Assembly (NCBI GenBank): GCA_003643975.1
Contig: QNAR01000001.1
Span: 1 to 34,479 of the forward strand
DNA from: Thermotogota bacterium
GTDB taxonomy: Bacteria > Thermotogota > Thermotogae > Petrotogales > Kosmotogaceae
Reading direction: 5' to 3'
Length of the DNA stretch: 34,479 nt
Shown: piece after piece, positions 1 to 33,162 of the stretch
Layout of the letters: each line of letters opens with the position of its first letter
How positions within the stretch are numbered: position 1 is the first letter of the stretch
The notes under the pieces: generated by a model
Told to the model about the DNA's origin: nothing
The model's database searches: none
The model's input: only the letters and a program-made list of their open reading frames with translations
Made by a program: the position numbers and the translations under genes

Positions 1-68
1 TCGACTCCTTTTAACGCATCAACTGCTCCAAAACTCTTCTTAATACCTTTAGCTTCAAGTAAACTCAT
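1..68 (-). CDS. Sugar ABC transporter ATP-binding protein, N-terminal fragment (runs off the left edge)
   Basis: Read manually, not in ORF track: ATG at 68 gives MSLLEAKGIKKSFGAVDALKGV, a typical sugar-ABC NBD start. SD GGAGGTG at 74-80. Follows the permease. Confidence 0.88.
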   Translation of the reverse strand, partial: MSLLEAKGIKKSFGAVDALKGV

Positions 69-91
69 AACAACACCTCCACAAGCTCCGT

Positions 92-1069
92 TCATTCCCC
101 AACAAGCTTCTTCTTGATCCTTATGTTACTTAAAGCAGCAGCAACGAGTATTATCCCTACAAATGCCTGATACCAATAAGCGGGAGCTCCAATGAGGATC
201 AGCCCGTTGTTGAGAGAAGCAAGAATTATACTACCCAGGAAGGCACCAAAGGCACTTCCATATCCACCTGTCATGAGTGTGCCACCTATAACGGCAGCGG
301 TGATTGCCTGAAGCTCCATTTCAACTCCAAGTGATGGATCTACAATACGGAATCTCGCAAAAGTGGCAATACCTGCAAGGCCCGCCATAAGACCACTTAT
401 CATGAACGTTGAGGTCTTGATTTTCCATGATTCTACTCCCATGGCATCAGCAACACTTGGATTCCCCCCGCTGGCTGATATCCAGTTTCCATAACGTGTC
501 CAGTCGAGAATGAAATAAAACAGGAAAGTGAATCCAACAAACCATAAACTTGACCAACGCATGTTGGGACCGAAACGGCCTCCAAAAATTTCTGCAATGA
601 ATTTTCCACTTGAAGGCAATAAAATAGGAAATCCCCCGGTAACAGCAAGAACAACCCCACGCCAGAACCATTGTGTTCCCAGCGTCGTTATGAACGATGG
701 AATACGCCCTTTTGTCGTAACAACACCATTAACAATTCCCTGGCCAGCGGCGAAAGCCAAAGCGATGATTACAGCCAGAATAGCTGGCACACCGTTTTTC
801 GCTAGTAGCGCAAAGATTATCGGCGTTAAGGCAAAGATCGAACCAACACTCAGGTCAAATTCTCCTGATATCATAACCAGGTTTATTCCCATCGTTACTA
901 AACCAAGTTCAGCAGCAACAGTAGAGATAGTAACCAGATTACCCAGCGATAAAAATTGTGGATTCATAATTCCAAAGATACCGAAAATTGCTACAAGAGA
1001 AACTACACCACCAACTTCTTTAAATCGCAGGTATTTCAGTATTAACGGTCCATTATTGTTTGTTGCCAC
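92..1069 (-). CDS. Sugar ABC transporter permease (RbsC/BPD_transp_2 family), probably for inositol
   Basis: Hydrophobic 325 aa with GEFDLSVGS, IPSFITTLG and ELQAITAAVIGGT motifs. GTG start with GGGAGA SD. Substrate inferred from operon. Confidence 0.92.
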   Translation of the reverse strand: MATNNNGPLILKYLRFKEVGGVVSLVAIFGIFGIMNPQFLSLGNLVTISTVAAELGLVTMGINLVMISGEFDLSVGSIFALTPIIFALLAKNGVPAILAVIIALAFAAGQGIVNGVVTTKGRIPSFITTLGTQWFWRGVVLAVTGGFPILLPSSGKFIAEIFGGRFGPNMRWSSLWFVGFTFLFYFILDWTRYGNWISASGGNPSVADAMGVESWKIKTSTFMISGLMAGLAGIATFARFRIVDPSLGVEMELQAITAAVIGGTLMTGGYGSAFGAFLGSIILASLNNGLILIGAPAYWYQAFVGIILVAAALSNIRIKKKLVGE

Positions 1070-1115
1070 TCAGTATCTCTCCCTTCTCAGGTCTGAAGAG
1101 TAATATGAGAATTCA

Positions 1116-1145
1116 GGAGGAAGAGGAGAGCTCTCCCCTTCCTCC
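1116..1145 (-). other. Intergenic stem-loop between binding-protein and permease genes (mRNA stabiliser or attenuator)
   Basis: GGAGGAAGAGGAGAG / CTCTCCCCTTCCTCC is a 15-bp inverted repeat with one mismatch, which is a G-U pair on the minus-strand mRNA. No U-tract. Lies 6 nt after the binding-protein stop. Confidence 0.75.
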
Positions 1146-1151
1146 CAAGTA

Positions 1152-2087
1152 TTAACGATAACCTTCTTTTACACTGTTTTCTACAGGGCCAACATTGTCC
1201 TTTGTAATAATGAAAGGTCCTGTTAGCACATCACCAATGGGAGAGAGACCATATTTTTTGTAGAAGTAAAGAAATTCCACTGCAAGATATCCCTGCAAGT
1301 ATTGCTGCTGATCAACAGTATATAGAACTTTTCCTTCTTCTATCCACTTGAGCATTTCTTCGGTAAGGTCAAAACCGCTTACCTTGACCTTTCCTTCAAG
1401 CCCCATGTCTTCTACCACGGTTACAGCTGGGAGTGTTCCTATAGGGCCAAGGGTGAAAATCATGTCGGTATCAGGATGTTTTCGCAGGTAACCTTCAAGA
1501 ACCGATACGCCTTTTGAAGGATCTACGGTAATATTCAATTTTTCGACAGGAATTCCTTTTGGACTGAGAGCATCCATTATACCCTTTGCCCTCATTTCCA
1601 TTCCAGCATGCCCTACTTCGTGAATTGCTATAACTGCGCGTTTAGGTGTGAATTGTGAGAGAACATACATTGCGCCATTGTATCCACCAAGATATTCGTT
1701 GTTTCCGATGTAAGCGATGTATGGAATTTTATCCAACCCTGTTCTTGGGTCTGGAACATTGATGGCGATGACCGGAATTCCGGAAGAGATCGCCCTTTTG
1801 AGAGGCTCTTCCACGGCGTTAACATCGGTTATTGTGACTATTAACCCATCTGGCTTCGCAGCAATGGCCGCGTTCAAATTATTAACGAAGGTTTGAAGAG
1901 AATACTTCACTGGTCCAAGATACGTTGCGTTCACTCCATATTTCTCAGCTGCATCATTCATGCCTTTCATCACGATTCCCCAGAATGGATCAGCAGGCCC
2001 TCCATGGGAAACCAGGTAGAAATTCATCTCTGCAAGTAAAAGACTCGAGCTAAGAACAACCAAAAGTATTACAAGAACTTTTTTCAT
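1152..2087 (-). CDS. Sugar ABC transporter substrate-binding protein (Peripla_BP_4 type), probably inositol-binding
   Basis: Signal peptide MKKVLVILLVVLSSSLLLA with no lipobox Cys. HGGPADPFW, GIPVIAIN and VDQQQYLQGY motifs. SD GGGAGG. Confidence 0.9.
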   Translation of the reverse strand: MKKVLVILLVVLSSSLLLAEMNFYLVSHGGPADPFWGIVMKGMNDAAEKYGVNATYLGPVKYSLQTFVNNLNAAIAAKPDGLIVTITDVNAVEEPLKRAISSGIPVIAINVPDPRTGLDKIPYIAYIGNNEYLGGYNGAMYVLSQFTPKRAVIAIHEVGHAGMEMRAKGIMDALSPKGIPVEKLNITVDPSKGVSVLEGYLRKHPDTDMIFTLGPIGTLPAVTVVEDMGLEGKVKVSGFDLTEEMLKWIEEGKVLYTVDQQQYLQGYLAVEFLYFYKKYGLSPIGDVLTGPFIITKDNVGPVENSVKEGYR

Positions 2088-2177
2088 GCAATACCCTCCC
2101 TTTCAAGTAATTTTGGAATTTACAAGAAAAATTCCCCGTTTTTTCCCTGTTTTCTATCCCCCCTTTCTTTCTGGTAT

Positions 2178-3407
2178 TTAGCGGGGTTGAGAAATATCTT
2201 TGTCTATGATTTTTTTGAGTTCTTCAAAATCCGGCATGATTCGAGCAACACCAGAATCAACAGCGGCCCTGGCCACTGCGACGGCAACAGCTTTGCCTAC
2301 ACCCGGGTCAAATGCCCACGGAATGATCTTGTTCTCGTTGATTTCTGCATCAGGCAAAAACCCCGCCAGGGCATCCACGGCAGCGAGTTTCATTTCATCG
2401 TTTATATCTCTCGCTCTGACGGATAATGCGCCACGGAAAAGACCCGGGAAAACGAGTACATTGTTTATCTGGTTATTGAAGTCGGATCTTCCGGTTGCCA
2501 CGATTCTCGCACCTGCTTCCTTGGCCTCATCTGGATAAATCTCTGGAATGGGGTTTGCAACGGCAAAAACTATGGGATCCTTTGCCATAGACTTAACCAT
2601 GTCTTTATTGACAAGCCCGCCTATGGAAGTTCCGATAAACACATCAGCACCTCTTATGGCATCTTTGAGAGTTCCTGTAAGCCCTTCAGGATTTATCAAG
2701 AGAGCAATTTCTTCGTGAAAAGCATTTAACAGCGTTTCAGGATATTCTTTATTTAAAATACCGTTTTTATCGCATGCCACGATGTTCTTGACGCCAGCTG
2801 CAAGAAGCATTTTTATGATCGCTCCGCCAGCAGCACCTATCCCAACTGTTGCAACCTTGATCTCGCTTAGCTTCTTACCAGTTATTTTCAGTGCATTTTT
2901 CAAGGCAGCGAGTATTATAATAGCCGCTCCATGCTGGTCATCGTGAAAAACCGGAATATCAAGCTTTTCCCTGAGTGCTTTCTCAATGTAAAAACACTGT
3001 GGCGAGGCAATATCTTCAAGATTCACTCCGCCAAAAGTGGGGCTAACCGTTTCTACAAATTCCACTATCTTCTCAGGATCCTGTGTGTTTATACAAAGAG
3101 GGTAAGCGTCAACATTTGCAAATTCCTTGAACAATACCGCTTTTCCTTCCATAACAGGCAGTGCAGCTTCAGGTCCTATATTTCCAAGTCCCAGCACAGC
3201 TGATCCATCTGAGACGATCGCCACTGCATTCCAGCGATTCGTGTAGTTGAAAACTTCATCAGGCTTTTTATGAATCAATCTGGATACATCTGCAACACCC
3301 GGTGTGTAGGCAAGGGCAAGCATCTTCTGATTATTAACCGGTACCCTGCTCTTGACTTCAAGCTTTCCTCTGAACTTTTTATGCAACTCTAATGCTTCGT
3401 TATTCAT
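2178..3407 (-). CDS. NAD(P)-dependent malic enzyme (small MaeB-N/YtsJ-like subfamily)
   Basis: AYTPGVA, SDGSAVLGLGNIG, PVMEGKAVLFK, NLEDI, FHDDQHG, GIGAAG and NQINNVLVFPG motifs. Confidence 0.93.
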   Translation of the reverse strand: MNNEALELHKKFRGKLEVKSRVPVNNQKMLALAYTPGVADVSRLIHKKPDEVFNYTNRWNAVAIVSDGSAVLGLGNIGPEAALPVMEGKAVLFKEFANVDAYPLCINTQDPEKIVEFVETVSPTFGGVNLEDIASPQCFYIEKALREKLDIPVFHDDQHGAAIIILAALKNALKITGKKLSEIKVATVGIGAAGGAIIKMLLAAGVKNIVACDKNGILNKEYPETLLNAFHEEIALLINPEGLTGTLKDAIRGADVFIGTSIGGLVNKDMVKSMAKDPIVFAVANPIPEIYPDEAKEAGARIVATGRSDFNNQINNVLVFPGLFRGALSVRARDINDEMKLAAVDALAGFLPDAEINENKIIPWAFDPGVGKAVAVAVARAAVDSGVARIMPDFEELKKIIDKDISQPR

Positions 3408-3420
3408 TTCAATCCCTCCA

Positions 3421-4434
3421 TCAAATCAATTCGGCAATCTTCACCGAACGATTTTCCTTAGCTGAAATGTCAGCAGCTCTGGCAACGAGGATTGAATAGT
3501 ATCCAGCCTCTACGCCAGCAGAAACGTCCTTATCTTCAAGAACGGATTCAACAAAAGCCCGAATTTCGTTGGCAAAAGACTGCATGTAGCGTTGAGGAAA
3601 GTAGTACAAAGGCTTATCGCTACAAACCGCAGCTTCTGTGCTCACAATGACGTTGGTTTCTCTATCGTTCTCGGCCCGTGCGCTACCTTTCGAACCAAAT
3701 ACTTCTACTCTTTGGTCGTATCCATAGGTGGTTTTTCTACTGACATCAATCGCACAAATCGCACCGTTTTCCATCTTCAATATGGCATAGGCGGTATCGA
3801 AATCTCCCGCTTCGCCTATTCTGGGGTCAAGGAGTACACTGCCACCAGCGTAAACTTCGACTACTTCTGACCCCGTTAAAAACCTTGCAGTGTCAAACTC
3901 ATGGATCATGAAATCGAAGAAGATGCCACCGGATTTCTTCACGAATTCTATATCGGGCAGGTGGGGATCTCTTGAAGTCGTTCTGATCAAATGAATTTCA
4001 CCGAGTTCGCCAGAATCTATAAAGTCTTTGACCTTTCTAAAGTTATGATCAAAGCGCCTATTAAAGGCAATCTGGATTTTAACGCCGGTGTTTTTTAGGT
4101 TTTTATAAAGCTCTCTGGCCGTTTCCAGATTATGTGCAAGGGGCTTTTCCATAAAAACATGTTTTTTTGCTTTAACAGCCGCTTTTAACATTTCACCATG
4201 TAATGTAGTTGGAGATGCGATAACCACGGCGTCTATCTCGGGATCTTCTAAAACATCCTGCCAATTGGCCGTGATTTCGAAGTCGCCCAAACGTTCAGCC
4301 CACTTCTTTGTTTCATCAACCCGCGGATCTGCCAGTGTTTTGACCTTGGCTTCCGGCACGTGCTGAATGAGGTTAGTTGTGTGAATCCTTCCCAATCTTC
4401 CCAACCCTATGACACCTATCCTCAAAGTTTCCAC
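3421..4434 (-). CDS. iolG: Inositol 2-dehydrogenase family (Gfo/Idh/MocA), second paralog
   Basis: GVIGLGRLG, EKPLA, FNRRFD, SRDP, DFMIHEFD and YGYDQRVEVFG motifs. Start moved from TTG 4455 (ORF track) to GTG 4434, which has SD AGGAGA upstream. Confidence 0.85.
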   Translation of the reverse strand: METLRIGVIGLGRLGRIHTTNLIQHVPEAKVKTLADPRVDETKKWAERLGDFEITANWQDVLEDPEIDAVVIASPTTLHGEMLKAAVKAKKHVFMEKPLAHNLETARELYKNLKNTGVKIQIAFNRRFDHNFRKVKDFIDSGELGEIHLIRTTSRDPHLPDIEFVKKSGGIFFDFMIHEFDTARFLTGSEVVEVYAGGSVLLDPRIGEAGDFDTAYAILKMENGAICAIDVSRKTTYGYDQRVEVFGSKGSARAENDRETNVIVSTEAAVCSDKPLYYFPQRYMQSFANEIRAFVESVLEDKDVSAGVEAGYYSILVARAADISAKENRSVKIAELI

Positions 4435-4451
4435 CGAATCATCTCCTGTTC

Positions 4452-5468
4452 TCAAAGAACTTCTTCGAGTTTTACTGGCCTATTCTCTTTAGCCGAGATC
4501 GTGGCAGCTTTGGCAATGACTATGGCCATCAACCCATCATGACCCGACACCGGAACTTCCTTATCTTCAATCAAGCTATCTATAAAATCTTTCATTTCAT
4601 CCTCAAATGATTGCATATATCTTTCAAGGAAGAAGTAAAGTGGCTTGTCACTTGCAACACACTCTTCATTACTGAGTATGACGTTTGTTTCGGTGTCATT
4701 TTCAGCCCGGGCACTCCCTTTTGAACCGAAGACTTCCACACGTTGGTCATAGCCATAGGCTGCTTTTCTGCTGTTGTCTATTATGCAGGTTGCTCCACTT
4801 CTGAATTTCAAAACAGATACAGCGGTATCGTAATCACCGGCATCACCAATTGTGGGATCTATGAGTACGCTTCCAAAGGCACAAACTTCAACGACTTCGT
4901 CTCCGGCAAGGTAACGAGCCATATCGAAATCGTGAATAGTCATATCCATGAAAATGCCACCAGAAACCTTTACGTATTCAATGGGTGGTGGGGCGGGGTC
5001 TCGTGATGTGATATTCACTATATGTACTTCTCCGATTTTTTCATCTTCAACAAGCTTTCTTACTTTCCTGAAATTATGGTCAAAGCGTCTGTTGAAACCT
5101 ATCTGAAGTTTTACCCCTTCTTCTGTTACAACTTCAAGCGCTTTTCTCGTTTTTTCCAGGTCCATATCGATGGGCTTTTCACAGAAAATATCTTTCTTCG
5201 CCCTTGCTGATGCGATTATCAGATCAGCATGAGTGTTGGTAGGCGAGCAGATGATCACCGCATCCACTTCGGGATTATCAATCACATCTTCAGGATCGGT
5301 CACAACGTTGTTTATTCCAACGGAATCAGCCCAGGCTTTGGTTTCTTCAAATCTCGGGTCACAAATTGTTATAACTTCCGCTCTTTCGACCTTTTGAACG
5401 AGATTTTTTGCGTGAATCCTTCCTATCCTGCCAGCTCCTATTACACCAACCTTGATTTTTTTATCCAT
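4452..5468 (-). CDS. iolG: myo-Inositol 2-dehydrogenase
   Basis: GVIGAGRIG, CEKPID, GFNRRFD, SRDP, DMTIHDFD and YGYDQRVE motifs. Adjacent to iolE. ATG 5468 preferred over GTG 5477 because GGAGTG is well spaced from it. Confidence 0.92.
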   Translation of the reverse strand: MDKKIKVGVIGAGRIGRIHAKNLVQKVERAEVITICDPRFEETKAWADSVGINNVVTDPEDVIDNPEVDAVIICSPTNTHADLIIASARAKKDIFCEKPIDMDLEKTRKALEVVTEEGVKLQIGFNRRFDHNFRKVRKLVEDEKIGEVHIVNITSRDPAPPPIEYVKVSGGIFMDMTIHDFDMARYLAGDEVVEVCAFGSVLIDPTIGDAGDYDTAVSVLKFRSGATCIIDNSRKAAYGYDQRVEVFGSKGSARAENDTETNVILSNEECVASDKPLYFFLERYMQSFEDEMKDFIDSLIEDKEVPVSGHDGLMAIVIAKAATISAKENRPVKLEEVL

Positions 5469-5480
5469 CTTCTTCACTCC

Positions 5481-6380
5481 CTAAAATCCGAGAATCTCTT
5501 TCAGATAGGCACGGGCTTTTTTCGCATATTCGAGAGGAGGGGCTATTTTTGGATCCTGTTCCGCTTCAACGACAATCCAGCCTTTGTAATTAATGTCATC
5601 AAGTGCTTTTGCTATCGGCTTGAAATCGATCATGCCATCTCCTGGAACGGTAAAAACGCCCTGCTTAACGGAATATAAAAAGCTCCAATCCTCCTGGAAA
5701 GAGCGCTTCATGACGTCCTCACGCAGATCTTTGAAATGAACGTGCTTTATACGTGAGCCGTAATCTTTTATCATTTGTAAAGGGTCTCCGCCTGCAAAAA
5801 CCAGGTGACCGGTATCGAGAAGCAAATAAACCAGATCAGGGTCAGTGCTTTCCATAAGCCTTCTGACTTCTTCATAGGTCTGAACCCCTGTTCCCATGTG
5901 GTGATGGAACACTATTTTCATATCTTTCTCAGCTGCAAGTTTTCCAAGCTCATGGAGCCCTTTGACGAGTTTCCCCCAATCTTCATCGCTGAAAATTGGC
6001 TTTTGGCTGTGCAATGGTGTATTCATAAGGCCTTGAACGCTTTTTCCGCTTTCGGATACGACTATCACTTTTGCACCCATAGCGTGAAGAAAATCCCTGT
6101 GCTTGATAAAAGCAGCAATAGTTTCTTCGGGATCTTTGGTGGTAAAGTAACTACTGAACCATGCACTTGCTATCTGCAATCCTCTGGGCTCAAGGGCCTT
6201 TTTAAGAACCATGGGATCACGTGGAAATTTGTTGCCAACTTCGCTACCTTCAAAGCCTGCCTCAGCCATTTCATCGATACACTGTTCAAAGGGAATATCA
6301 CCGCCAAGTTCAGGCATGTCATCATTGGTCCAAGCAATTGGAGCAATTGCCAATTTGATGTCTTCTCTTCTGATACCCAT
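5481..6380 (-). CDS. iolE: myo-Inosose-2 (2-keto-myo-inositol) dehydratase
   Basis: APIAWTNDDMPELG N-terminus plus HHHMGT, LLDTGH, HVHFKD, FTVPGDG and WIVVEAEQDP motifs. Confidence 0.95.
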   Translation of the reverse strand: MGIRREDIKLAIAPIAWTNDDMPELGGDIPFEQCIDEMAEAGFEGSEVGNKFPRDPMVLKKALEPRGLQIASAWFSSYFTTKDPEETIAAFIKHRDFLHAMGAKVIVVSESGKSVQGLMNTPLHSQKPIFSDEDWGKLVKGLHELGKLAAEKDMKIVFHHHMGTGVQTYEEVRRLMESTDPDLVYLLLDTGHLVFAGGDPLQMIKDYGSRIKHVHFKDLREDVMKRSFQEDWSFLYSVKQGVFTVPGDGMIDFKPIAKALDDINYKGWIVVEAEQDPKIAPPLEYAKKARAYLKEILGF

Positions 6381-6394
6381 CTAATTCCCTCCAG

Positions 6395-8278
6395 TCACCA
6401 CTTGCGGGCGTGTTTTTTCATATATTCGCTGTCTTCCATATATGCTTTTTTCACTGAATCGCTTTCGGATACCTCTGCAACGCCAACTCGCCACCATGAT
6501 TCATATCCACCGGACTGTGTGCCGGGTAAGACTTTCACGTCTATGAGGACGCTTGTGGATTCTTTTCTCGCTTCTTCCAAAGCTTTTCGAAGTTCATTTT
6601 CGTTACGCGCTGTGTAGGCTTTTGCACCTAAGCTCTTCGCTATTCCAGCAAAGTCTATCTGTATATAGTCATCATCGAGTTTTCCTGTTTCTTTCGAACG
6701 ATACCTCAGCTCATTGCCAAATCCTTTTGCGCTTCCATGGGATTTTTGAAGGCTGTTTATGCTCTGGAATCCACCGTTGTCGAGTATAATGACGTTTATC
6801 TTCATTCGTTCCTGCAAACTGGTAAGAAACTCAGAATGAAGCATAAGGAAACTCCCGTCACTCAAAAGGGCGTAGGCTTCCTTTTCAGGTTCGGCCATTT
6901 TCACGCCGAAAGTACCTGAAACTTCATAGCCCATACAGGAAAAACCGTATTCCATGTGATATGACTTGATACCTTTGCATCGCCATAGCCTGTGTAAATC
7001 CCCCGGAAGGCTACCAGCGGCTGCTACAAAAACGTCATTTTCAGTTGCGAAATCATTTATTATGCCAAGCGCTGTGGTTTGTGGGAGCCCTTTTTCAGAT
7101 TCCAGGTGATAAAGCCTGTCCACTTCCCTGTCCCATTCTTCTTTAAGTGTTTTTAGCTCTTCTTTTGAATAATTCGACCTATATCCTTCCTTCTTCAAAC
7201 CTTCCATCAGGACTTCAAGACCGAGCATGGCATCTGCGTTGAGGTGTTCGGCATCCATCTTCAGACCATCGAAATTATTGACATTTATGCTCAGGATTTT
7301 CACATTGGGGTTCTGAAAAGCGGTTTTTGAAGCTGTTGGGAAATCCATAAGCCTTGTACCAACTGCGATTATTAAATCCGCCTCCTTGGCGAGTTTGTTG
7401 GCAGCAAGGGTCCCTGTGGTGCCAACTCCACCCATGTTGAGCGGGTGATCCCACAGCATCGCTCCTTTTCCAGCCTGCGTGAAGGAAACAGGAATGTTAA
7501 AAGCTTCAGCAAATTCCCGTAAGGTATCCACTGCTTGAGAATAATGAACACCACCGCCAGCGATTATCAGCGGCTTTTTCTTAGTCTTAATGAGCCTTAG
7601 TGCTCTCACAAGAGCGCTCTCTGATGGTGGGCGCCTATCTATATGGTGTACTCTTTTCTCAAAGAATTCCACTGGATAATCATAGGCTTCACCCTGCACA
7701 TCTTGTGGAAGGGCAAGGGTAACAGCTCCTGTTTCTGCGGGGTCGGTGAGAACCCTCATAGCGTTTAGCGCTGCAGTAATTAGCTGTTCAGGTCTTTCTA
7801 TTTTGTCCCAGTATTTGCTCACAGCTTTGAAAGCGTCATTAGCCGTGATTTTTGGATTGTAAGGCATTTCTATTTGCTGAAGCACCGGGTCAGGCTGCCT
7901 ATCGGCAAAGATATCTCCCGGGAGCAAAAGCACAGGAATTCTGTTTACAGTTGCAGTAGCAGCACCTGTCACCATATTGAGTGCTCCGGGACCTATCGAA
8001 CTTGTACAGGCAAAGATTTCAAGCCTGTTTTTCTGTTTGGCGAAAGCAGTAGCAGCGTGAACTATCCCCTGCTCATTGTGTCCCTGATAAAATTTAAGAG
8101 AGAGGTCTTTCATGTTTTCAAGGCCTTCGCCAATGCCAAGGAGGTTGCCGTGGCCAAAAATCCCATATACTCCTTTGACAAATTTGTGTTCTTCCCCATC
8201 AAATTCGACATACTGGGCATCAAGGAATTTCAACAAAGCTTGAGCAGTAGTTAAGCGTATTGTTTTCAAATCATTCAC
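6395..8278 (-). CDS. iolD: 3D-(3,5/4)-trihydroxycyclohexane-1,2-dione acylhydrolase (ThDP-dependent, ring opening)
   Basis: RLTTAQAL, GIFGHGN, TSSIGPG, PDPVLQQ, AAGSLPGDLHRLW, YHMEYGFSCMGYE and C-terminal SWWRVGVAEVS motifs. Confidence 0.96.
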   Translation of the reverse strand: MNDLKTIRLTTAQALLKFLDAQYVEFDGEEHKFVKGVYGIFGHGNLLGIGEGLENMKDLSLKFYQGHNEQGIVHAATAFAKQKNRLEIFACTSSIGPGALNMVTGAATATVNRIPVLLLPGDIFADRQPDPVLQQIEMPYNPKITANDAFKAVSKYWDKIERPEQLITAALNAMRVLTDPAETGAVTLALPQDVQGEAYDYPVEFFEKRVHHIDRRPPSESALVRALRLIKTKKKPLIIAGGGVHYSQAVDTLREFAEAFNIPVSFTQAGKGAMLWDHPLNMGGVGTTGTLAANKLAKEADLIIAVGTRLMDFPTASKTAFQNPNVKILSINVNNFDGLKMDAEHLNADAMLGLEVLMEGLKKEGYRSNYSKEELKTLKEEWDREVDRLYHLESEKGLPQTTALGIINDFATENDVFVAAAGSLPGDLHRLWRCKGIKSYHMEYGFSCMGYEVSGTFGVKMAEPEKEAYALLSDGSFLMLHSEFLTSLQERMKINVIILDNGGFQSINSLQKSHGSAKGFGNELRYRSKETGKLDDDYIQIDFAGIAKSLGAKAYTARNENELRKALEEARKESTSVLIDVKVLPGTQSGGYESWWRVGVAEVSESDSVKKAYMEDSEYMKKHARKW

Positions 8279-9065
8279 CTCCGAAAGGCCATATGGAAGC
8301 GTCTTTTTCCGTTACCCACAGATGTTCCAGTTCAAAGGTAGGCACTGTATAAGGGTTACCATCAAGATGCCTTATGGCCCATATGTAATACATGGCGTAT
8401 CCCGGTGCACTTACCTGTGGATGAGAGAGATCATCAAGGATTTTCAGCGTATCACCATGCCTGATCTTATAAACATCCTCGCCCAACATCCCAAAGCCAA
8501 AGCCCTGCTCGGGAAAGAAGCGATAATGGTATATTTCAGGCTGAGGATGGTGGTGTGGCGGATAACTTGACCACTTGCCAGGGTAATTTACCACCTCTCC
8601 AAGCACCAGTTTGGCATCTGGGGCGTTGGTTACATCAAAAATAGTACGCACGATCCTCGTAGAAGTTTCGCGCATTGTGCCTTCGCCTCTGTGTTCTGAC
8701 CTGGTATCGTTCCCCTGATAAAGCCGACATTCAAAAACCGCATCATTTGTAGTTGCAAAAATTGCGATTTCTGCATTGGTTTTGGCCTCGATTTTTACCT
8801 CAGTGCTCATTGGAACATGCAGGCATACAGGTTCATTTTCCAAAAGAGAGTCTCTTTTTACCAGTTCTACCCTTCCATTCCATTCGAAAGATATTTCCCC
8901 TTTCATCAGCAGGAAAGCTCTTTCCTTTCCGGGCTGGCTTTTGTAGGTTTGTTGGCCCTTCAACAAAAGTAGACCAAAATCCATCATTGTATCTTTCTCT
9001 GATTCACCCTCCCGGGTTATTTCGTTAAAACCTTGTATGCGTTTCTTCGCTTTTAGCAAATACAT
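8271..9065 (-). CDS. iolB: 5-Deoxy-D-glucuronate isomerase
   Basis: LVLGEVVNYPGKWSSYPPHHH, EIYHYRF and HPQVSAPGYAMYYIW motifs. 8-nt overlap with iolD. Confidence 0.93.
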   Translation of the reverse strand: MYLLKAKKRIQGFNEITREGESEKDTMMDFGLLLLKGQQTYKSQPGKERAFLLMKGEISFEWNGRVELVKRDSLLENEPVCLHVPMSTEVKIEAKTNAEIAIFATTNDAVFECRLYQGNDTRSEHRGEGTMRETSTRIVRTIFDVTNAPDAKLVLGEVVNYPGKWSSYPPHHHPQPEIYHYRFFPEQGFGFGMLGEDVYKIRHGDTLKILDDLSHPQVSAPGYAMYYIWAIRHLDGNPYTVPTFELEHLWVTEKDASIWPFGGE

Positions 9066-9088
9066 TGCTCATCTCCTCCAGATTTGCA

Positions 9089-10051
9089 TTATTTTCTTAA
9101 AAGGACATTTTTAACGCTGGCTGCTATATCCTGAGCTGTCATATTGAAGCGTTTCTTCAGGTAGTCAACATCTCCAACTTCGCCAAACAAATCTTTTACC
9201 CCCACTCTTTCAATGGGTACAGGGCACGTTTCAGCGACCACTTCGGCAACTGCAGAACCAAGGCCGTTATATATATTGTGGTTTTCGGCTGTCACAATTG
9301 CCCCGGTTTCAGATGCACATTTTTCAATGAGCTCTCTATCTATGGGTTTAATGGTAAAGATGTTAACTACTCTTGCATCAATGCCCTCACTTGCCAGCAA
9401 ATCAGCGGCATCAAGAGCTTCTGCCACCATGATTCCCGTGGCAATAATAGTGACATCTTTCCCTTCTCTGAGAACTATTCCTTTTCCAATCTCAAAACTT
9501 GAACCTTCTTCGAATACCCGTATTGTTGTTTTTCTCGAAATCCTCACGTAGAATGGTCCGTAAGAATAGGTTATGTCTTTTAGAAGGGCTTTCATCATTA
9601 CAGTATCAACAGGCTCTATAATCGTGATGGTAGGAATTCCCCTCACAAAGCCAATATCTTCCAAAGGCATATGAGTTCCACCGTTATATGCAGCGGTTAC
9701 TCCTGGATCTGTTGCCATCATCTTCACGTTTAGCTTGTTATAGGCTATGGAGATATATACCTGATCAAGAGCCCTTCTAGTGCTGAAACAAGCAAAGGTA
9801 TGAGTGAAGGGGATCTTGCCAGTGGCAGAAAGACCTGCGGCAATGCCCATCATATTGGCTTCCTGAACTCCCACGTTAATCGCTCTTTCAGGGAATTTTT
9901 CTAAAAATCTGTAAGTACCATTGGAATGCATCAAATCCGCATCGAGTACGATTATATTTGGATCACTCTTTGCAAACTCTATGAGCTGGTCGATATAGAC
10001 ATCTCTCATCATTACAGTGTCGGGTTTTCTCTTTTCAACGAGTTTGATCAT
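9089..10051 (-). CDS. Split transketolase, C-terminal (pyrimidine-binding + C-terminal domain) subunit
   Basis: VLDADL, NVGVQEANMMGIAAG, RALDQ, NGGTHM, TIKPID and AENH motifs. ATGA overlap with the N-subunit. Confidence 0.92.
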   Translation of the reverse strand: MIKLVEKRKPDTVMMRDVYIDQLIEFAKSDPNIIVLDADLMHSNGTYRFLEKFPERAINVGVQEANMMGIAAGLSATGKIPFTHTFACFSTRRALDQVYISIAYNKLNVKMMATDPGVTAAYNGGTHMPLEDIGFVRGIPTITIIEPVDTVMMKALLKDITYSYGPFYVRISRKTTIRVFEEGSSFEIGKGIVLREGKDVTIIATGIMVAEALDAADLLASEGIDARVVNIFTIKPIDRELIEKCASETGAIVTAENHNIYNGLGSAVAEVVAETCPVPIERVGVKDLFGEVGDVDYLKKRFNMTAQDIAASVKNVLLRK

Positions 10052-10902
10052 CTAAGATCCCTTTCTTTCTCTTCCCATTCTTTTTGTAACGCGCTTATGG
10101 CATCGTTGATCTGCTCCTCATTAAACTTCATATGGTGGTTCAGCTCTATGCCTTCTGCAAAAGTGCAGCCTTTTCCTTTTATTGTGTGTAAAACAATTAC
10201 AGAGCTTTTCCCTTTTGTTTCCTTTGCTCTTTGTATTGCTTCATGTATCTGCATGACATTATGCCCATCAACATCCTGAGCGTGCCAGCCAAATTCCTCC
10301 CATTTTTTCCTCAAATCCCCAAGTGGATTGATATTGTCAATGTATCCATCAAGCTGTTGCTTGTTGTAATCGATGAACACTATGAGGTTATCGAGTCCGG
10401 CATTTCCAGCGAATAATGCACCTTCCCAAACCTGTCCTTCCTGGCATTCTCCATCGCCTAAAAGAACATAAACATAGTTTTCCTTGTTGTCCATCTTATG
10501 CCCCAGGGCAATTCCTATACCCATAGAAATACCCTGTCCGAGGGAGCCTGTGGACATATCTATACCCGGGGTATGATTTCTGTCAGCATGACTCGGTAAA
10601 TCCGTTCCCCCTCGATTCAGCGTTTTCAACCATTCCATGGGGAAAAAACCCTTCAAAGCCAGCGTTGCATACAAAGAAGGGCCTGCATGACCCTTTGACA
10701 TCACAAACCAATCACGGTCTTCCCATTTTGGGTTCTTGGGATCGTATCTCATAACTTTGCCATAAAGCACTGCGAGCAGTTCAACAATTGACATCGCGCC
10801 ACCAATGTGGCCAAATCCGAGATATCCGAGCTCCTTCAAGGTTTCAATGCGAATTTTTGTTGCGAATATTTCCAGTTCTTTCATTTCGTTGTCTGTGAGC
10901 AT
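10048..10902 (-). CDS. Split transketolase, N-terminal ThDP-binding subunit
   Basis: GHIGG, DRDWFVMSKGH, STGSLGQG, the GDGE...N ThDP motif and TIKGKG. Confidence 0.93.
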   Translation of the reverse strand: MLTDNEMKELEIFATKIRIETLKELGYLGFGHIGGAMSIVELLAVLYGKVMRYDPKNPKWEDRDWFVMSKGHAGPSLYATLALKGFFPMEWLKTLNRGGTDLPSHADRNHTPGIDMSTGSLGQGISMGIGIALGHKMDNKENYVYVLLGDGECQEGQVWEGALFAGNAGLDNLIVFIDYNKQQLDGYIDNINPLGDLRKKWEEFGWHAQDVDGHNVMQIHEAIQRAKETKGKSSVIVLHTIKGKGCTFAEGIELNHHMKFNEEQINDAISALQKEWEEKERDLR

Positions 10903-10908
10903 CAGAGT

Positions 10909-12171
10909 TTATTCACCTCGCTTGATTTTAGGGAGTGTAGAAGCTCCAAGGGGAAATACGGCGTATTTTGCGTTCATCCCCTTTTCACCAAAAGCTTCTT
11001 TTACAGCTTCAGTAGGGTTATCAAAGCATCTTATGCCAACTAACTTTTCTTCTGCGAATTCTTTATTGGTAACCAGGAAAATTTCCGATGTTTTTAACAC
11101 GACTTTGGATATTGCAGCTGCTTTGTGGCCACCCAGGACAAAATTTTCTTTCAGGCCTTCAACCAGTTCCGTAGGCTTTTTTCCAGAGGTAATCCATTCT
11201 TTGAAAGTTTTACTTCCGTATTTCTCTGGACATTCGGCAAAAAGAATCATTCTACCACCGGGTTTCAAAACCCCGGCGCAGTTATCTATCGCCTTTTGCG
11301 CTTGATAGAGGTTGATATCCTTTGGATATCCTCCAGCGCTTACAATGACAATGTCAAGAGGCTCTTTAATGGGAACAAGCCCACTTTTTTCAAGGCGTTC
11401 AGCCAATATCCTGTGTGCCTTGATCCAATCACCAGAAGCAGCATCGATCACTCTATGATGTTCGCCCACAACCACGTTCAAGACGAAATCAATTCCCAGA
11501 AAACTCACACCCTCTTCGATATCCATGCGTACAGGATTGTCGTAAATAGAAGCCGCTTCAGCACCATCTTCCATCATGTGGCTGTGATTTTGTCTGATCG
11601 TTTTGGCAGAAGCGACACCGGGTAGAATGGCTTTGGCACCACCGGAAAATCCGGCAAAATAATGAAATTCCACGTTGCCAAGGCAAATTCTGAAATCAGC
11701 CTCAACAACAGGGCGAAAAAATTCTACTCTCGTCCCCCGGGTGGTTGTGCCCACATAAACCGTATTGTCCACGTCATGATTCAAAACTCTAATTCTTTCG
11801 TAGATACTTTTGCCAACCGCCTTTTGCAATTCATCTTCCGTCATCTTTCTGTGAAGGCCTAAGGCAATTACAATTGTTATATCCTCATCATTCACACCTG
11901 CTTTATTCAGCCTGTCAATGACATGAGGCAAAAGAACATCACTGGGGCATGGCCGGGTCAAATCGCTGGTCACTATCACCACTTTCTGTCCTGGCTTAAC
12001 TAGCTGTTCAACTCTTTCCGTGCCCACCGGATGATTTAAGGCTTTTTCAACAAGTGCATTTTCTGAATCGGTGATGGATTGCCGTTGGGGGTGATACTCA
12101 CCAACAAATCCTTTCTCAGGTAATTCAACTTTTACAGTCGATTCACCATATGGAAGTTCAAAATTGAGCAT
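10909..12171 (-). CDS. larA: LarA-family nickel-pincer-dependent 2-hydroxyacid racemase/epimerase (predicted malate racemase)
   Basis: SDLTRP, ALGLHR, NHD, FHYFAGFSGGAK, NHS, GGYPKDINLYQAQKA and GGHKA motifs. Family assignment is firm; the substrate is inferred from context. Confidence 0.88.
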   Translation of the reverse strand: MLNFELPYGESTVKVELPEKGFVGEYHPQRQSITDSENALVEKALNHPVGTERVEQLVKPGQKVVIVTSDLTRPCPSDVLLPHVIDRLNKAGVNDEDITIVIALGLHRKMTEDELQKAVGKSIYERIRVLNHDVDNTVYVGTTTRGTRVEFFRPVVEADFRICLGNVEFHYFAGFSGGAKAILPGVASAKTIRQNHSHMMEDGAEAASIYDNPVRMDIEEGVSFLGIDFVLNVVVGEHHRVIDAASGDWIKAHRILAERLEKSGLVPIKEPLDIVIVSAGGYPKDINLYQAQKAIDNCAGVLKPGGRMILFAECPEKYGSKTFKEWITSGKKPTELVEGLKENFVLGGHKAAAISKVVLKTSEIFLVTNKEFAEEKLVGIRCFDNPTEAVKEAFGEKGMNAKYAVFPLGASTLPKIKRGE

Positions 12172-13436
12172 TATTTTTCAACCTTCCTGTACGCCTTTTT
12201 CAGAGCCTTAATAAGAGGAAGCTCTTTGCCAGATAAGAAGCGTACCATAGCTCCTCCAGCAGTACATATATAGCCAAACTTCTTATTGGCATTTTCTACG
12301 AGCTTCTGCGCAGCGGAGACACTATCTCCGCCTCCGATAACGCTATAACCCGGAGCTTCAGCAATGGCATTCCATATCTCTCTTGTCCCCTTTTCAAAAA
12401 GCGGGTTTTCATACGCTCCAGCGGGCCCGTTTATAAAAATCGTTCCTGCTTTCATGATTTCACCCTTATACAGCTCTATGGTCTTTTCACCTATATCAAG
12501 GAAAAGAGCATTATCAATTGGAAGCTCGTTGATAGAGCATTCCACACGTTTTCCATCTTTTTCATATGCAAAGTCTACAGGATTGAGAAACCTGTCGCCA
12601 AAGCGAGCAAGATAATCTTTGGCAGGTTCAATGAAGGCATCGAGAGAACGATCGAAAATGAATTTTTCCTGCTGCTTGCCGACCGATCTTCCCATAGCCA
12701 TTTGCATGACTATTCCCGTCACACCACAGGTCAAGATTTTATCAGCAGTGCCATTTTCGAGGACCTGTTTCATCATTCCGAAAGCATCGGATATTTTCAA
12801 CCCTCCAAGAACAAAAACAGCGGGCTTTTCAGGGCTTTCCATCACTTTTGTTAATGCTGAAAGCTCTTTGAAGAGAAGCCTGCCTGCCGCCGTAGGCAAA
12901 AGCTCTTCGAAAGCGACCATGGAAGGTGAGTTCCTATGTGCTGCCGAAAAAGCGTCGTTTACATAGTAATCTGCAAGAGGGGCAAGATTACGAACTATGT
13001 AGGTATTCAACATCTCATGCGCTTCGAGCTTTACAGCGTTCTCAAAGGTTGAAACTTCTTCTGTTAGATATCTAACATTTCCCAGCAGTACCGCTTCGCC
13101 TGGCTTCAGGCTTTTCACCATTTCCTGCGCAGCCGGCCCGGCAACATCATCGATGTATTTCACGGGTTTTCCAAGCTTTTCTGACAACTTTTCAGCATGC
13201 TCAGCCATGGAAATGAGATTATGGTAATCGAGCGTATCTCCCTGATGTGCTAGTATAGCCAGCTTTGCCCCTTTTTCCATTAGTTCCCTGATTGTAGGTA
13301 TACTTTGATTTATTCTATTTTCATTGGCTATTTTTTTTGTTTTCGGATCGAGAGGGGAGTTGATATCAATCCTCAGGATAACTGTCTTATCATGGAAGTT
13401 AAAGTCATCGAGAGTATTTATCAAAATCTCTCGCAT
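12171..13436 (-). CDS. pgk: Phosphoglycerate kinase family, archaeal-like, with an altered substrate site
   Basis: RIDINSP, AHQGD (canonical H[LQ]GR), LLGNVRY, VNDAFSAAHR, LGGLK, NGPAG, GGGD and TAGGA motifs. 1-nt TAATG overlaps on both sides. Confidence 0.9.
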   Translation of the reverse strand: MREILINTLDDFNFHDKTVILRIDINSPLDPKTKKIANENRINQSIPTIRELMEKGAKLAILAHQGDTLDYHNLISMAEHAEKLSEKLGKPVKYIDDVAGPAAQEMVKSLKPGEAVLLGNVRYLTEEVSTFENAVKLEAHEMLNTYIVRNLAPLADYYVNDAFSAAHRNSPSMVAFEELLPTAAGRLLFKELSALTKVMESPEKPAVFVLGGLKISDAFGMMKQVLENGTADKILTCGVTGIVMQMAMGRSVGKQQEKFIFDRSLDAFIEPAKDYLARFGDRFLNPVDFAYEKDGKRVECSINELPIDNALFLDIGEKTIELYKGEIMKAGTIFINGPAGAYENPLFEKGTREIWNAIAEAPGYSVIGGGDSVSAAQKLVENANKKFGYICTAGGAMVRFLSGKELPLIKALKKAYRKVEK

Positions 13437-14458
13437 TACTTATGCCTCCCTATTTTTAGGTATTTGTTCGTAAGCCCAACGGCTTCCAGCCTATCCGCCT
13501 GCATTTCCATAGCGGCTCTGATACCATCAATCGTCTCGGGAATAACCACGGACTCTTGTGGAATATGCAGGGAATATATGAGGTGGTCTTCAAAAGGCGT
13601 AACTGTTTCTTCCCATATGGAAATTTCGTACATATCGCCGCGCGGATTTCCCAAATCACGTGCATAGCGGAATATGGAAGCGTTACCCAGAAAACCATCT
13701 TCTATTTTTACCAGCCTGATTCTTGGGTGTTCTCTGAATATCTCAATGGCCTCTTCTTTGGAAACTTTCTTTTTGGGTTTGGCAAAAACGGTGATGAAAT
13801 GACCATGGGTAACGGGAGTGTGCACCAAAACGCCGGTGGCCTTCACATGAGGCATTATGAGCATTAAGTCAACCGCTTGATGGTTAGGAACCGGATCAAC
13901 TTTCAGCGCATTAGTAAGACCTCTGTGGTAATCTCCCGGATCAGCAACACGCCTCACAATATGAATCATCGCGGATTCCACTCCAACAGCTCTATCTAAG
14001 CAATCTACAGAACGAATTAAACCAGTGGTATTGCATGAAGTAAGTTTCAAGAATTGTTTTCCTATACCTTTTTCATAATTTGCATATCCGTGAAAAAACA
14101 CATCGGCAACGCTTGTTTTTTCTCCACCCTGGAAAATAGCTTTTTTGCCGTATTTTTCGTAAAGGACTTTGTTTTTCGCACCTACGCCAGCATTGGTTGC
14201 ATCAAGAACTATATCCACTTTTTTAATCAGGTCTTCCAGATTTCCAGAAATAGGAATGCCAGCTTTTTCAACCTTTTCCCGGTTTTCCTCAACGGAAAGG
14301 TAAAAATCGTAGGGCATTCCCTTCTCTTTTAGAGCCCTAACGGCAAGCGTCGGAGCAACATCCGCTACACCAACAAGTTCCATGTCTTCTTGAAGTGCAA
14401 CTCCATCAGCGAGACGTTGGCCTATCACACCATAACCAACTACACCAACTTTTACCAT
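13436..14458 (-). CDS. gap: Type II (archaeal-class) glyceraldehyde-3-phosphate dehydrogenase homolog, first gene of the operon
   Basis: GYGVIGQRLAD, IFQGGEK, catalytic SCNTTGL, IVRRVADP, RDLGNPRGDMYE and QESVVIPETIDGIRA all match class II GAPDH. SD GGAGG. Confidence 0.9.
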   Translation of the reverse strand: MVKVGVVGYGVIGQRLADGVALQEDMELVGVADVAPTLAVRALKEKGMPYDFYLSVEENREKVEKAGIPISGNLEDLIKKVDIVLDATNAGVGAKNKVLYEKYGKKAIFQGGEKTSVADVFFHGYANYEKGIGKQFLKLTSCNTTGLIRSVDCLDRAVGVESAMIHIVRRVADPGDYHRGLTNALKVDPVPNHQAVDLMLIMPHVKATGVLVHTPVTHGHFITVFAKPKKKVSKEEAIEIFREHPRIRLVKIEDGFLGNASIFRYARDLGNPRGDMYEISIWEETVTPFEDHLIYSLHIPQESVVIPETIDGIRAAMEMQADRLEAVGLTNKYLKIGRHK

Positions 14459-14472
14459 ATTAAATCCCTCCT

Positions 14473-14486
14473 TGTATGCGTATTCA
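14473..14486. promoter_or_regulatory. Possible third LacI-type operator next to the gap RBS (overlaps a Rex-like half site)
   Basis: Minus strand TGAATACGCATACA matches 11/14 positions of TGTAAGCGCATACA at 14740-14753. Confidence 0.4.
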
Positions 14487-14611: not shown

Positions 14612-14627
14612 ATGTATTCGCTTACAT
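14612..14627. promoter_or_regulatory. LacI-family operator, copy 2
   Basis: ATGTATTCGCTTACAT is a pseudo-palindrome with central CG, 15/16 identical to the reverse complement of 14739-14754. Confidence 0.65.
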
Positions 14628-14738: not shown

Positions 14739-14754
14739 ATGTAAGCGCATACAT
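14739..14754. promoter_or_regulatory. LacI-family operator, copy 1
   Basis: ATGTAAGCGCATACAT is a near-perfect palindrome with central CG. It abuts a minus-strand TTGTCA -35-like hexamer (14754-14759). Confidence 0.68.
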
Positions 14755-30908: not shown

Positions 30909-30909
30909 A

Positions 30910-30924
30910 TGGGGCTTAGCCCCA
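30910..30924 (+). other. Short stem-loop between rbsC and rbsB
   Basis: TGGGGC-TTA-GCCCCA followed by ATTTT. Confidence 0.5.
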
Positions 30925-30946
30925 ATTTTGAAGGGGAGGGAACACT

Positions 30947-31819: not shown

Positions 31820-31825
31820 GTGCTG

Positions 31826-31851
31826 AATGGGGGCATTTGCCCCCATTTTTT
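31826..31851 (+). terminator. Terminator-like hairpin between rbsB and rbsK
   Basis: AATGGGGGC-ATTT-GCCCCCATT running into a T6 tract, 6 nt after the rbsB stop. Confidence 0.75.
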
Positions 31852-31867
31852 CTTTGGGAGGATAATT

Positions 31868-32767: not shown

Positions 32768-33162
32768 AAAAAACTGGAATAATAAATAGAGAGCTTGGAG
32801 CTGTTATAGTCAAGCTGGGGCATACTGATGCCATTACAGTGTGTGATTGCGGATTACCACTTTCCGAAGAGAAAAAAGTTATCGACCTCTCCATGAGAAA
32901 GGGCTTTCCGGGATTGATAGAAATTCTTCAGCCGCTCCTCGAAGAAATTGTCGTTGAAAGAGCTATATTGGCCAAGGAGATAATAAAAGCAAACCCCGAA
33001 ATGCACAAAAAACTCTTGGAACTGTTAAAGAATGTGGATATTGAATATGTAGAGCACGAAGATTTCAAACATATGGCACTCGAAAAGTCCAGAGCCATAG
33101 TGAGAACAGGTGAAGCTACACCTTATTCCAATGTCATTCTCTTTTCAGGGGTAGACTTCTAA
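32764..33162 (+). CDS. rbsD: D-ribose pyranase
   Basis: LGHTD..VCDCGLP, IDLS, HEDFK and RTGEATPYSNVIL.SGV.F motifs. Confidence 0.96.
   Translation: MKKTGIINRELGAVIVKLGHTDAITVCDCGLPLSEEKKVIDLSMRKGFPGLIEILQPLLEEIVVERAILAKEIIKANPEMHKKLLELLKNVDIEYVEHEDFKHMALEKSRAIVRTGEATPYSNVILFSGVDF

What the first reader, a model, noticed from the sequence alone, without database searches (positions are those of the whole stretch)
1..14458. Candidate new inositol catabolic pathway: transketolase cleavage to D-malate with substrate-level phosphorylation, replacing IolC/IolJ/IolA
Seen: one co-directional operon (1-nt TAATG overlaps at 13436 and 12171, ATGA overlap at 10048, enzyme-gene gaps of 23 nt or less) joins iolG-E-D-B and an ABC importer with class II GAPDH, PGK, LarA, split transketolase and malic enzyme. 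No iolC, iolJ or iolA is in the window. Established: IolG/E/D/B yield 2-deoxy-5-keto-D-gluconate (DKG, HOOC-CH2-CHOH-CHOH-CO-CH2OH), and transketolase removes a C2 ketol unit from ketoses with D-threo C3/C4. Inference: read from its keto end DKG has that configuration, so transketolase would leave OHC-CHOH-CH2-COO- (D-malate semialdehyde), a carboxylate mimic of D-glyceraldehyde-3-P. The GAPDH homolog would give D-malyl-1-phosphate, the PGK homolog D-malate + ATP, the LarA homolog L-malate, and malic enzyme pyruvate + CO2. The C2 unit would enter the pentose phosphate pool. All five extra enzymes get a role and the stereochemistry explains why a racemase is needed. I do not know a published description but cannot search the literature.
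Basis: partly seen in the sequence, partly recalled or inferred. Interest (0 to 1): 0.95.

Follow-up and report, generated by a model that had tools for sequence, protein, structure and literature searches.

The report
Kinase-free inositol route through transketolase
This anaerobe's inositol operon lacks the usual kinase, aldolase and final dehydrogenase and instead carries altered transketolase, GAPDH and PGK genes that likely split the six-carbon keto-acid and oxidise the four-carbon piece to D-malate while likely making ATP, an untested route that I found in no paper searched.

Summary
Observation confirmed: one minus-strand operon, gapII-pgk-larA-tktN-tktC-iolB-iolD-iolE-iolG-iolG-malic enzyme-ABC. 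No IolC or IolA reaches its cut-off here or in complete relatives, which also carry one FBA and separate housekeeping TK. The left-edge continuation is ABC ATPase, LacI and more ABC genes.
Among 61 iolD-positive Clostridia and Negativicutes: iolC only 47, gapII only 11, both 0, neither 3. Spirochaetes are less clean (both 2, neither 34 of 64). A D-malate/tartrate dehydrogenase sits in 7 of 50 related loci, 6 without LarA. The TK carries the His-to-Asp change of sulfofructose transketolases; the PGK has lost a phosphate-binding Arg.
Against: no assay; larB/C/E, which make LarA's cofactor, were not found here or in two complete relatives; 15 of 50 loci lack a nearby TK.
Best reading (0.7): TK cleaves 2-deoxy-5-keto-gluconate to D-malic semialdehyde, then D-malate plus ATP, then pyruvate. 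Not found in my literature searches. The scan proposed this route before on other genomes. New variant of a known kind; interest 0.75.

The parts
14740..14753 (.). LacI-type palindromic site, candidate operator
   Evidence: kept at the same place in G011; like sites precede the LacI gene on own contig C190 and in G009, G011. Pattern was drawn from these sites, so the shuffle control is circular
14613..14626 (.). LacI-type site, candidate operator
14473..14486 (.). weaker LacI-type site (2 mismatches) just before the gapII start
13436..14458 (-). class II (archaeal-type) GAPDH homolog; predicted phosphorylating D-malic semialdehyde dehydrogenase
   Evidence: NF003251 408 bits vs cut-off 185; TM 0.86-0.89 to archaeal GAPDH structures; SCNTT in 23 of 23, HHG changed to HQA
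12171..13436 (-). archaeal-type PGK homolog; predicted ATP-forming D-malyl-phosphate kinase
   Evidence: PF00162; best solved relative 2cun; HLGR changed to HQGD, Asp in 69 of 75
10909..12171 (-). LarA-family protein most like malate racemase LarAH6/Mar2
   Evidence: NF052593 493 bits vs cut-off 500; best solved relative Mar2 6d6z; Q292 and GHK350 kept
10048..10902 (-). split transketolase, N-terminal subunit
   Evidence: PF00456; best solved relative 6yak
9089..10051 (-). split transketolase, C-terminal subunit, DPG..NGGTH subfamily shared with sulfo-TK
8271..9065 (-). IolB-type 5-deoxyglucuronate isomerase
   Evidence: PF04962 183 bits; TIGR04378 only 95 vs 205, but 36-56% identical copies sit in iolC-containing Bacillota loci
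6395..8278 (-). IolD
   Evidence: TIGR04377 927 vs 715
5481..6380 (-). IolE
   Evidence: TIGR04379 429 vs 290
4452..5477 (-). IolG, first copy
   Evidence: TIGR04380 491 vs 355
3421..4455 (-). IolG, second copy
   Evidence: TIGR04380 421 vs 355
2178..3407 (-). malic enzyme (short bacterial type)
   Evidence: PF00390 and PF03949
1152..2087 (-). sugar ABC binding protein, best model rhizopine SBP (below cut-off)
   Evidence: NF052284 223 vs 420
92..1069 (-). sugar ABC permease
   Evidence: PF02653
1..68 (-). start of the ABC ATPase gene, continued on own contig C190

Best explanation
The operon likely degrades myo-inositol by a kinase-free route: IolG, IolE, IolD and IolB would make 2-deoxy-5-keto-D-gluconate (DKG), the split transketolase is predicted to move its two-carbon ketol unit to a sugar-phosphate acceptor, and the GAPDH and PGK homologs would oxidise the remaining D-malic semialdehyde to D-malate with ATP formation. 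D-malate would then reach pyruvate plus CO2 through a malate racemase and malic enzyme, or in other carriers through a D-malate dehydrogenase. Shown: genes, order, family matches, residue changes, distribution. From established knowledge: the IolG/E/D/B steps. Inferred: every step after DKG. The racemase step is the weakest in this organism.
For: (1) Exclusion with iolC in genomes picked by iolD alone: Clostridia 11 iolC, 6 gapII, 0 both, 3 neither of 20; Negativicutes 36, 5, 0, 0 of 41; 3 of 4 further Thermotogota have gapII and none iolC. Of 53 genomes picked by gapII, 1 has iolC over cut-off, in a separate canonical locus. (2) In 50 related loci with iolD and gapII/pgk: larA 35, tartrate/D-malate dehydrogenase 7, either 41, both 1, TK 35, malic enzyme 13, iolC 1, iolA 0 (TIGR02089 over cut-off for the two tested). 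Two unrelated D-malate-handling solutions point to D-malate. (3) TK has the His-to-Asp change (37 of 37) that PMC11659671 section 3.4 describes for sulfofructose transketolases, and its relatives elsewhere lie in sulfo-TK-like loci: a subfamily linked to non-phosphorylated anionic ketoses. (4) PGK keeps the carboxyl/hydroxyl and ATP-site motifs but has Asp for one phosphate-binding Arg. (5) Housekeeping class I gap, pgk and a full-length TK are elsewhere. (6) Fischer-projection reasoning from the recalled DKG structure gives D-threo at the keto end and D-malate as product. (7) Malic semialdehyde to D-malate to pyruvate is shown in Acinetobacter with other enzymes (PMC11353897, passages).
Against: No enzyme or growth data. 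larB, larC and larE were not found in the own genome (83.5% complete) or in complete G011 and G009; larB was found in only 16 of 36 genomes whose locus has larA, and G000 and G011 have no tartrate/D-malate dehydrogenase over cut-off. 15 of 50 loci lack a TK within the DNA held. The TK's canonical stereo-selecting Asp (role recalled) is Asn in 37 of 37, so the stereochemical argument is less tight than for a textbook TK. In spirochaetes exclusion is weak: iolC 18, gapII 14, both 2, neither 34 of 64 (Fisher p 0.31). gapII-pgk often occurs without iol genes (iolD in 43 of 84 loci). Related genomes are not independent.
Confidence: 0.7

Rival explanations
1. The upper route is as proposed, but in this organism D-malate is not handled by a working NPN racemase: it is excreted, or LarA uses a scavenged or differently made cofactor, or another enzyme takes D-malate. 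This is a variant of the best reading at its last step.
For: No larB/C/E found in G000, G011, G009; NPN is made by LarB, LarE and LarC (PMC11770544, passage); no TIGR02089 match over cut-off in G000 or G011.
Against: Cofactor-binding and catalytic motifs of LarA are as intact in 18-19 larB-negative loci as in 14 larB-positive ones; malic enzyme is coupled in the same operon.
Confidence: 0.12
2. DKG is phosphorylated by an unrecognised kinase, such as the TM0415-like enzyme encoded nearby, and split by the housekeeping class II aldolase; the TK-GAPDH-PGK-LarA genes serve a second substrate such as a keto-hexuronate.
For: A TM0415 homolog lies in the next gene cluster (9 loci held and own contig C39); its true acceptor is uncertain (PMC5931981, passages); use of an FBA in place of IolJ was proposed for Dysosmobacter (PMC13311982, passages); one gapII-pgk-TK-larA-malic locus has UxaE and no iolD (L168).
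Against: No IolA over cut-off to remove malonate semialdehyde in 5 of 5 genomes; Thermotoga maritima has TM0415 but no iolD match (control); the kinase appears in few loci; this does not explain exclusion with iolC or the D-malate dehydrogenase swap inside iol operons.
Confidence: 0.08
3. The extra genes are ordinary GAPDH, PGK and transketolase paralogs that raise glycolytic and pentose-phosphate flux during growth on inositol.
For: Annotation, fold and catalytic Cys are those of class II GAPDH; 3 of 4 basic residues of the PGK phosphate pocket remain.
Against: Conserved changes at phosphate-contact positions in TK and PGK; housekeeping copies exist; DKG would have no exit; malate genes are unexplained.
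Confidence: 0.05
4. D-malic semialdehyde is the intermediate, but it is made from an iol intermediate by an enzyme other than this TK, at least in lineages whose locus has no TK.
For: 15 of 50 loci have no TK in the DNA held; in several spirochaetes the best off-locus TK lies in a sulfo-TK-like cluster.
Against: 8 of 9 such spirochaete genomes still encode a TK of the same subfamily elsewhere; in this window the TK is coupled between larA and iolB.
Confidence: 0.05

Closest known systems
Canonical myo-inositol pathway (IolG-E-D-B-C-J-A; Bacillus subtilis, Salmonella, Anaerostipes)
   Same: IolG, IolE, IolD over cut-off, an IolB of the type found beside iolC in anaerobes, a sugar ABC importer, LacI-type sites.
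   Different: No IolC, dedicated IolJ or IolA; predicted C2+C4 split instead of C3+C3; no ATP spent on DKG.
Sulfo-TK pathway of sulfoquinovose (SqwGH; PMC9594981, PMC11659671)
   Same: Split TK of the same motif subfamily (His-to-Asp); ketol transfer from a non-phosphorylated anionic ketose; a variant that oxidises the leaving aldehyde with ATP gain.
   Different: Inositol context, carboxylate instead of sulfonate, one cleavage only, aldehyde predicted to be oxidised through an acyl-phosphate (GAPDH/PGK homologs) and not through acyl-CoA.
Acinetobacter baumannii L-carnitine pathway (PMC11353897)
   Same: Malic semialdehyde to D-malate to pyruvate; 7 related loci carry a tartrate/D-malate dehydrogenase family gene.
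   Different: There an aldehyde dehydrogenase oxidises the aldehyde with no ATP step; oxygen-dependent start; different source molecule.
Archaeal class II GAPDH (2czc, 1cf2, 1b7g, 2yyy) and archaeal PGK (2cun)
   Same: Fold, catalytic Cys motif, RR motif, PGK nucleotide motifs.
   Different: Bacterial clade with HHG to HQA, an Asp at the end of the second strand in place of the KTRP-type motif, and PGK Arg/Lys to Asp; not needed for housekeeping glycolysis here.
Malate racemase LarAH6/Mar2 (PMC7583248)
   Same: Best PDB and NCBIfam match; Gln before catalytic Lys and GHK motif kept.
   Different: Loop reads HYF where Mar2 has HYK; no larB/C/E found in this genome or two complete relatives.

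Membership tests
Canonical iol pathway | IolG, IolE, IolD, IolB present | tested here: met
   IolB is below its TIGR cut-off but matches IolB of iolC-containing loci
Canonical iol pathway | DKG kinase IolC | tested here: not met
   best 183 bits vs 300 in own genome; none in complete G011, G009
Canonical iol pathway | dedicated aldolase IolJ | tested here: not met
   one PF01116 gene per genome in 5 of 5, none at the operon; moonlighting by that FBA is not excluded
Canonical iol pathway | malonate-semialdehyde dehydrogenase IolA | tested here: not met
   0 of 5 genomes over the TIGR01722 cut-off
Class II GAPDH | fold, SCNTT nucleophile, RR and His motifs | tested here: met
Class II GAPDH | activity on D-glyceraldehyde 3-phosphate | not testable with these tools
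   HHG to HQA change suggests a changed anion site; role of that motif recalled
Phosphoglycerate kinase | full basic patch for the 3-phosphate | tested here: not met
   Arg of HLGR is Asp in 69, Ser in 5, Gly in 1 of 75; H64, R122, R168 kept; residue roles recalled
Sugar-phosphate transketolase | RSFHR phosphate-orienting motif (PMC11659671) | tested here: not met
   window reads R16, M41, F89, D115, R173
Sulfofructose transketolase SqwGH | His-to-Asp change in the head-group site | tested here: met
   D115 in 37 of 37; the paper's motif has Ala where the window has Met41
Sulfofructose transketolase SqwGH | sulfoquinovose gene context | tested here: not met
   context is iol; a separate TK fragment beside a GH31 gene lies on own contig C192
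Malate racemase LarAH6 | family score and substrate signature | tested here: inconclusive
   493 vs 500 bits; Q and GHK kept, loop Lys replaced by Phe
Malate racemase LarAH6 | NPN cofactor supply (larB, larC, larE) | tested here: not met
   own genome incomplete, but G011 and G009 are single-contig, 99% complete

The most novel reading that the evidence does not exclude
Anaerobes in at least five phyla finish inositol breakdown by an undescribed transketolase route, with two undescribed enzyme activities (a phosphorylating D-malic semialdehyde dehydrogenase and an ATP-forming D-malate kinase, both annotated as glycolytic enzymes). With the canonical kinase/aldolase route and a transaldolase route seen in other iolC-less operons, inositol catabolism would mirror the EMP/TAL/TK trio of sulfoquinovose; many carriers would also run a LarA racemase without the known cofactor genes.
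Probability: 0.65. Interest if true: 0.88.

Novelty: new variant of a known kind. Interest (0 to 1): 0.75.

Why it matters
Surveys treat iolC as a core inositol gene (PMC9430895), and recent gut studies report iolG/E/D/B without iolC/iolJ and leave the gap open (PMC13617567). This operon offers a concrete, assayable way to close such gaps in some anaerobes (I did not test the taxa of that paper). It would add a new substrate-level phosphorylation, give a source of D-malate that explains why malate racemases are common, and re-annotate a large bacterial clade of 'type II GAPDH' and PGK genes (4944 hits at E<=1e-20 among 7999 candidates scored; that count may include archaeal enzymes). By my own arithmetic the ATP gain over the canonical route is small (about 3.3 versus 3 per inositol to acetate with an ATP-dependent PFK).

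Tried and rejected
iolC/iolJ/iolA just past the left edge: rejected. Promoter and terminator scans were at chance level (21 vs 25.5 and 13 vs 14.7). The TktC tree did not finish its careful search; the quick tree shows no exclusive inositol clade, since sulfo-TK-like and iol-linked spirochaete copies intermix, so TK phylogeny does not predict substrate. The AlphaFold model (mean pLDDT 80.9; residues 171-178 and 255-270 below 50) only confirmed the fold. A search for a paper on class II GAPDH anion sites found nothing usable, so those residue roles are recalled. Two papers asked for by DOI (a Thermotoga inositol pathway paper and a species description) are not held, so growth data and the Thermotoga route were not checked. 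I did not look at sequencing runs and did not predict complexes.
Full report
Observation. The window is a whole contig of an 83.5% complete genome of 254 contigs; the closest named GAPDH relative is from Kosmotoga olearia (88%). Positions 1-14458 hold, on the minus strand, gapII, pgk, larA, tktN, tktC, iolB, iolD, iolE, two iolG, malic enzyme, an ABC binding protein, a permease and the start of an ATPase. Three LacI-type palindromes lie upstream of gapII; two recur at the same place in G011, and like sites precede the neighbouring LacI gene. The pattern came from these sites, so only the conservation counts.

What is missing. IolC: best 183 bits against a cut-off of 300 in the own genome, none in G009, G011, G034. 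IolA: 0 of 5 genomes over cut-off; class II aldolase: one per genome in 5 of 5. G011 has the same operon followed by ABC ATPase, LacI and a second ABC cluster, and own contigs C190 and C39 match that continuation. Housekeeping class I gap with pgk is on C159 and a full-length TK on C2. The IolB scores low on its TIGR model, but the same type sits beside iolC and an aldolase in canonical anaerobe loci, so DKG is the expected product.

Distribution. The genome scan kept the best 80 of 537 relatives. With the window and three relatives, 84 loci gave pgk 82, larA 51, iolD 43, TK 39 (two of these distant), malic enzyme 27, tartrate/D-malate dehydrogenase 5; many loci are cut by contig ends. To avoid picking by the feature counted, I took genomes by iolD alone: 21 of 399 in the class of G060, 65 of 301 in the class of G065, 42 of 251 in the class of G083, 8 of 151 in the own phylum. 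I dropped the three centre genomes and the four own-order genomes already seen. Of 20 Clostridia-class genomes: iolC 11, gapII 6, both 0, neither 3. Of 41 Negativicutes-class: 36, 5, 0, 0. Of 4 Thermotogota: 0, 3, 0, 1. Of 64 spirochaete-class: iolC 18 at E<=1e-70, gapII 14, both 2, neither 34. Class names are taken from the record titles of the centre loci. Fisher values (0.002, 1e-6, and 0.31 for spirochaetes) overstate because kin are not independent. In some gapII-positive genomes gapII is far from iolD (G436, G761, G793, G839).

A close TktN (E<=1e-75) was found in 24 of those 28 gapII-positive genomes, plus G139 on inspection, against 4 of 14 iolC-positive and 9 of 29 'neither' genomes chosen by me. 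Of 20 iol loci fetched from 19 'neither' genomes, 8 carry a transaldolase-family gene, 5 of them with an IolA. That suggests a third ending in which unphosphorylated DKG is a ketose donor, and supports by analogy that DKG can be cut without a kinase.

Product. In 50 related loci with iolD and gapII/pgk, larA is in 35 and a tartrate/D-malate dehydrogenase gene in 7; either in 41, both in 1; malic enzyme and the dehydrogenase never occur together. The window's LarA is closest to malate racemase Mar2 and keeps Q292 and GHK, with HYF for HYK. From the recalled structure of DKG (D-gluconate configuration at C3 and C4), reading from the keto end gives the D-xylulose pattern and leaves the aldehyde that oxidises to D-malate.

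Active sites. TktC has D115 for the phosphate-binding His, M41 for Ser and N123 for the conserved Asp in 37 of 37 sequences. PMC11659671 (section 3.4 read whole) reports RAFDR in sulfofructose TKs against RSFHR in ordinary ones. Off-operon members of the same motif group lie beside GH31, Fe-ADH, TauE, DUF4867 or CoA-ligase genes, as expected of sulfo-TK loci (gene-to-Sqw assignment partly recalled). PGK keeps D24, N26, R41, H64, R122, R168 in 75 of 75 and has Asp for the HLGR Arg in 69 of 75. GAPDH keeps SCNTT in 23 of 23 and changes HHG to HQA; an invariant D33 suggests NAD+ use (roles recalled).

Results against. LarB, LarC and LarE were not found in G000, G011 or G009; over 52 carriers larB was found in 24, and in 16 of the 36 whose locus has larA (many are incomplete). 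LarA motifs are equally intact in both groups. G000 and G011 have no TIGR02089 match over cut-off, so the fate of D-malate in this organism is open. 15 of 50 loci lack a TK in the DNA held, mostly spirochaetes; 8 of 9 such genomes tested have the TK subfamily elsewhere. gapII-pgk also occurs beside 4-aminobutyrate-type aminotransferases (4 loci), HpcH aldolases (4 loci) and UxaE, so it is a general module and its substrate range may be wider than malic semialdehyde. A TM0415-like PPi-dependent kinase lies in the next cluster.

Literature. Searches (open-licence PMC and bioRxiv only; listings seen) gave no description of a transketolase or D-malate branch of inositol catabolism. Passages seen: PMC11770544, PMC7583248 (plus section 8 whole), PMC13524815, PMC13617567, PMC9430895, PMC11353897, PMC13311982, PMC12482443, PMC9594981, PMC11659671 (plus section 3.4 whole), PMC5931981. 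'Transketolase' has 0 occurrences in the four inositol papers searched for it. Supplements were not read; the gene-context table of PMC7583248 may list these neighbours. Subscription papers were not searchable.

Earlier scan notes proposed the same route on other genomes and the transaldolase route (read after I had seen it). They are not counted as evidence.

Verdict. A real, conserved, iolC-replacing gene set with a coherent but unassayed mechanism; confidence 0.7. It works like the sulfo-TK pathway and ends like the Acinetobacter carnitine pathway, but is a member of neither. New variant of a known kind; interest 0.75.

Noticed in passing
L116, L117, L118, L121, L122, L129, L134, L135, L215: iol operons without iolC carry a long transaldolase-family gene, often with IolA: a likely third, transaldolase ending of inositol catabolism.
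   Followed up: partly
window 10909-12171; G000, G011, G009 and others: Intact LarA-family genes in many genomes with no larB found (20 of 36 tested): cofactor salvage, another biosynthesis or another function is unexplained.
   Followed up: partly
own genome C192: Fragment of a second split TK (60% to window TktC) beside an RpiB-like ORF and a GH31 gene: probable sulfo-TK locus in the same organism.
   Followed up: partly
L069, L096, L101, L038: gapII-pgk beside a 4-aminobutyrate-type aminotransferase without iol genes; would fit 4-amino-3-hydroxybutyrate as another source of malic semialdehyde.
   Followed up: partly
L161, L174, L175, L060: gapII-pgk beside HpcH/HpaI aldolases; one genome (G683) has four gapII copies. 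L174 and L091 also have an Asp/Glu/hydantoin racemase-family gene next to pgk.
   Followed up: no
L168: gapII-pgk-TK-malic enzyme-larA with UxaE (tagaturonate epimerase) and no iolD: TK cleavage of fructuronate to a tartrate is possible.
   Followed up: no
L018-L019, L020, L022; own contigs C190 and C39: Next cluster: LacI, a second ABC system, TM0415-like kinase, HAD phosphatase, DUF6454 and (in L022) a glycerophosphodiesterase: likely uptake of inositol phosphates.
   Followed up: partly
L120, L124-L128, L130-L133: iolD loci of spirochaete-class genomes with none of iolC, gapII or the transaldolase in the DNA held; two have an acylating aldehyde dehydrogenase. Their ending is unexplained.
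   Followed up: no
window 27501-33162: Ordinary ribose-type operon (LacI, ABC, PfkB, RbsD); window 23785-27386 has a MoxR ATPase with DUF58.
   Followed up: no
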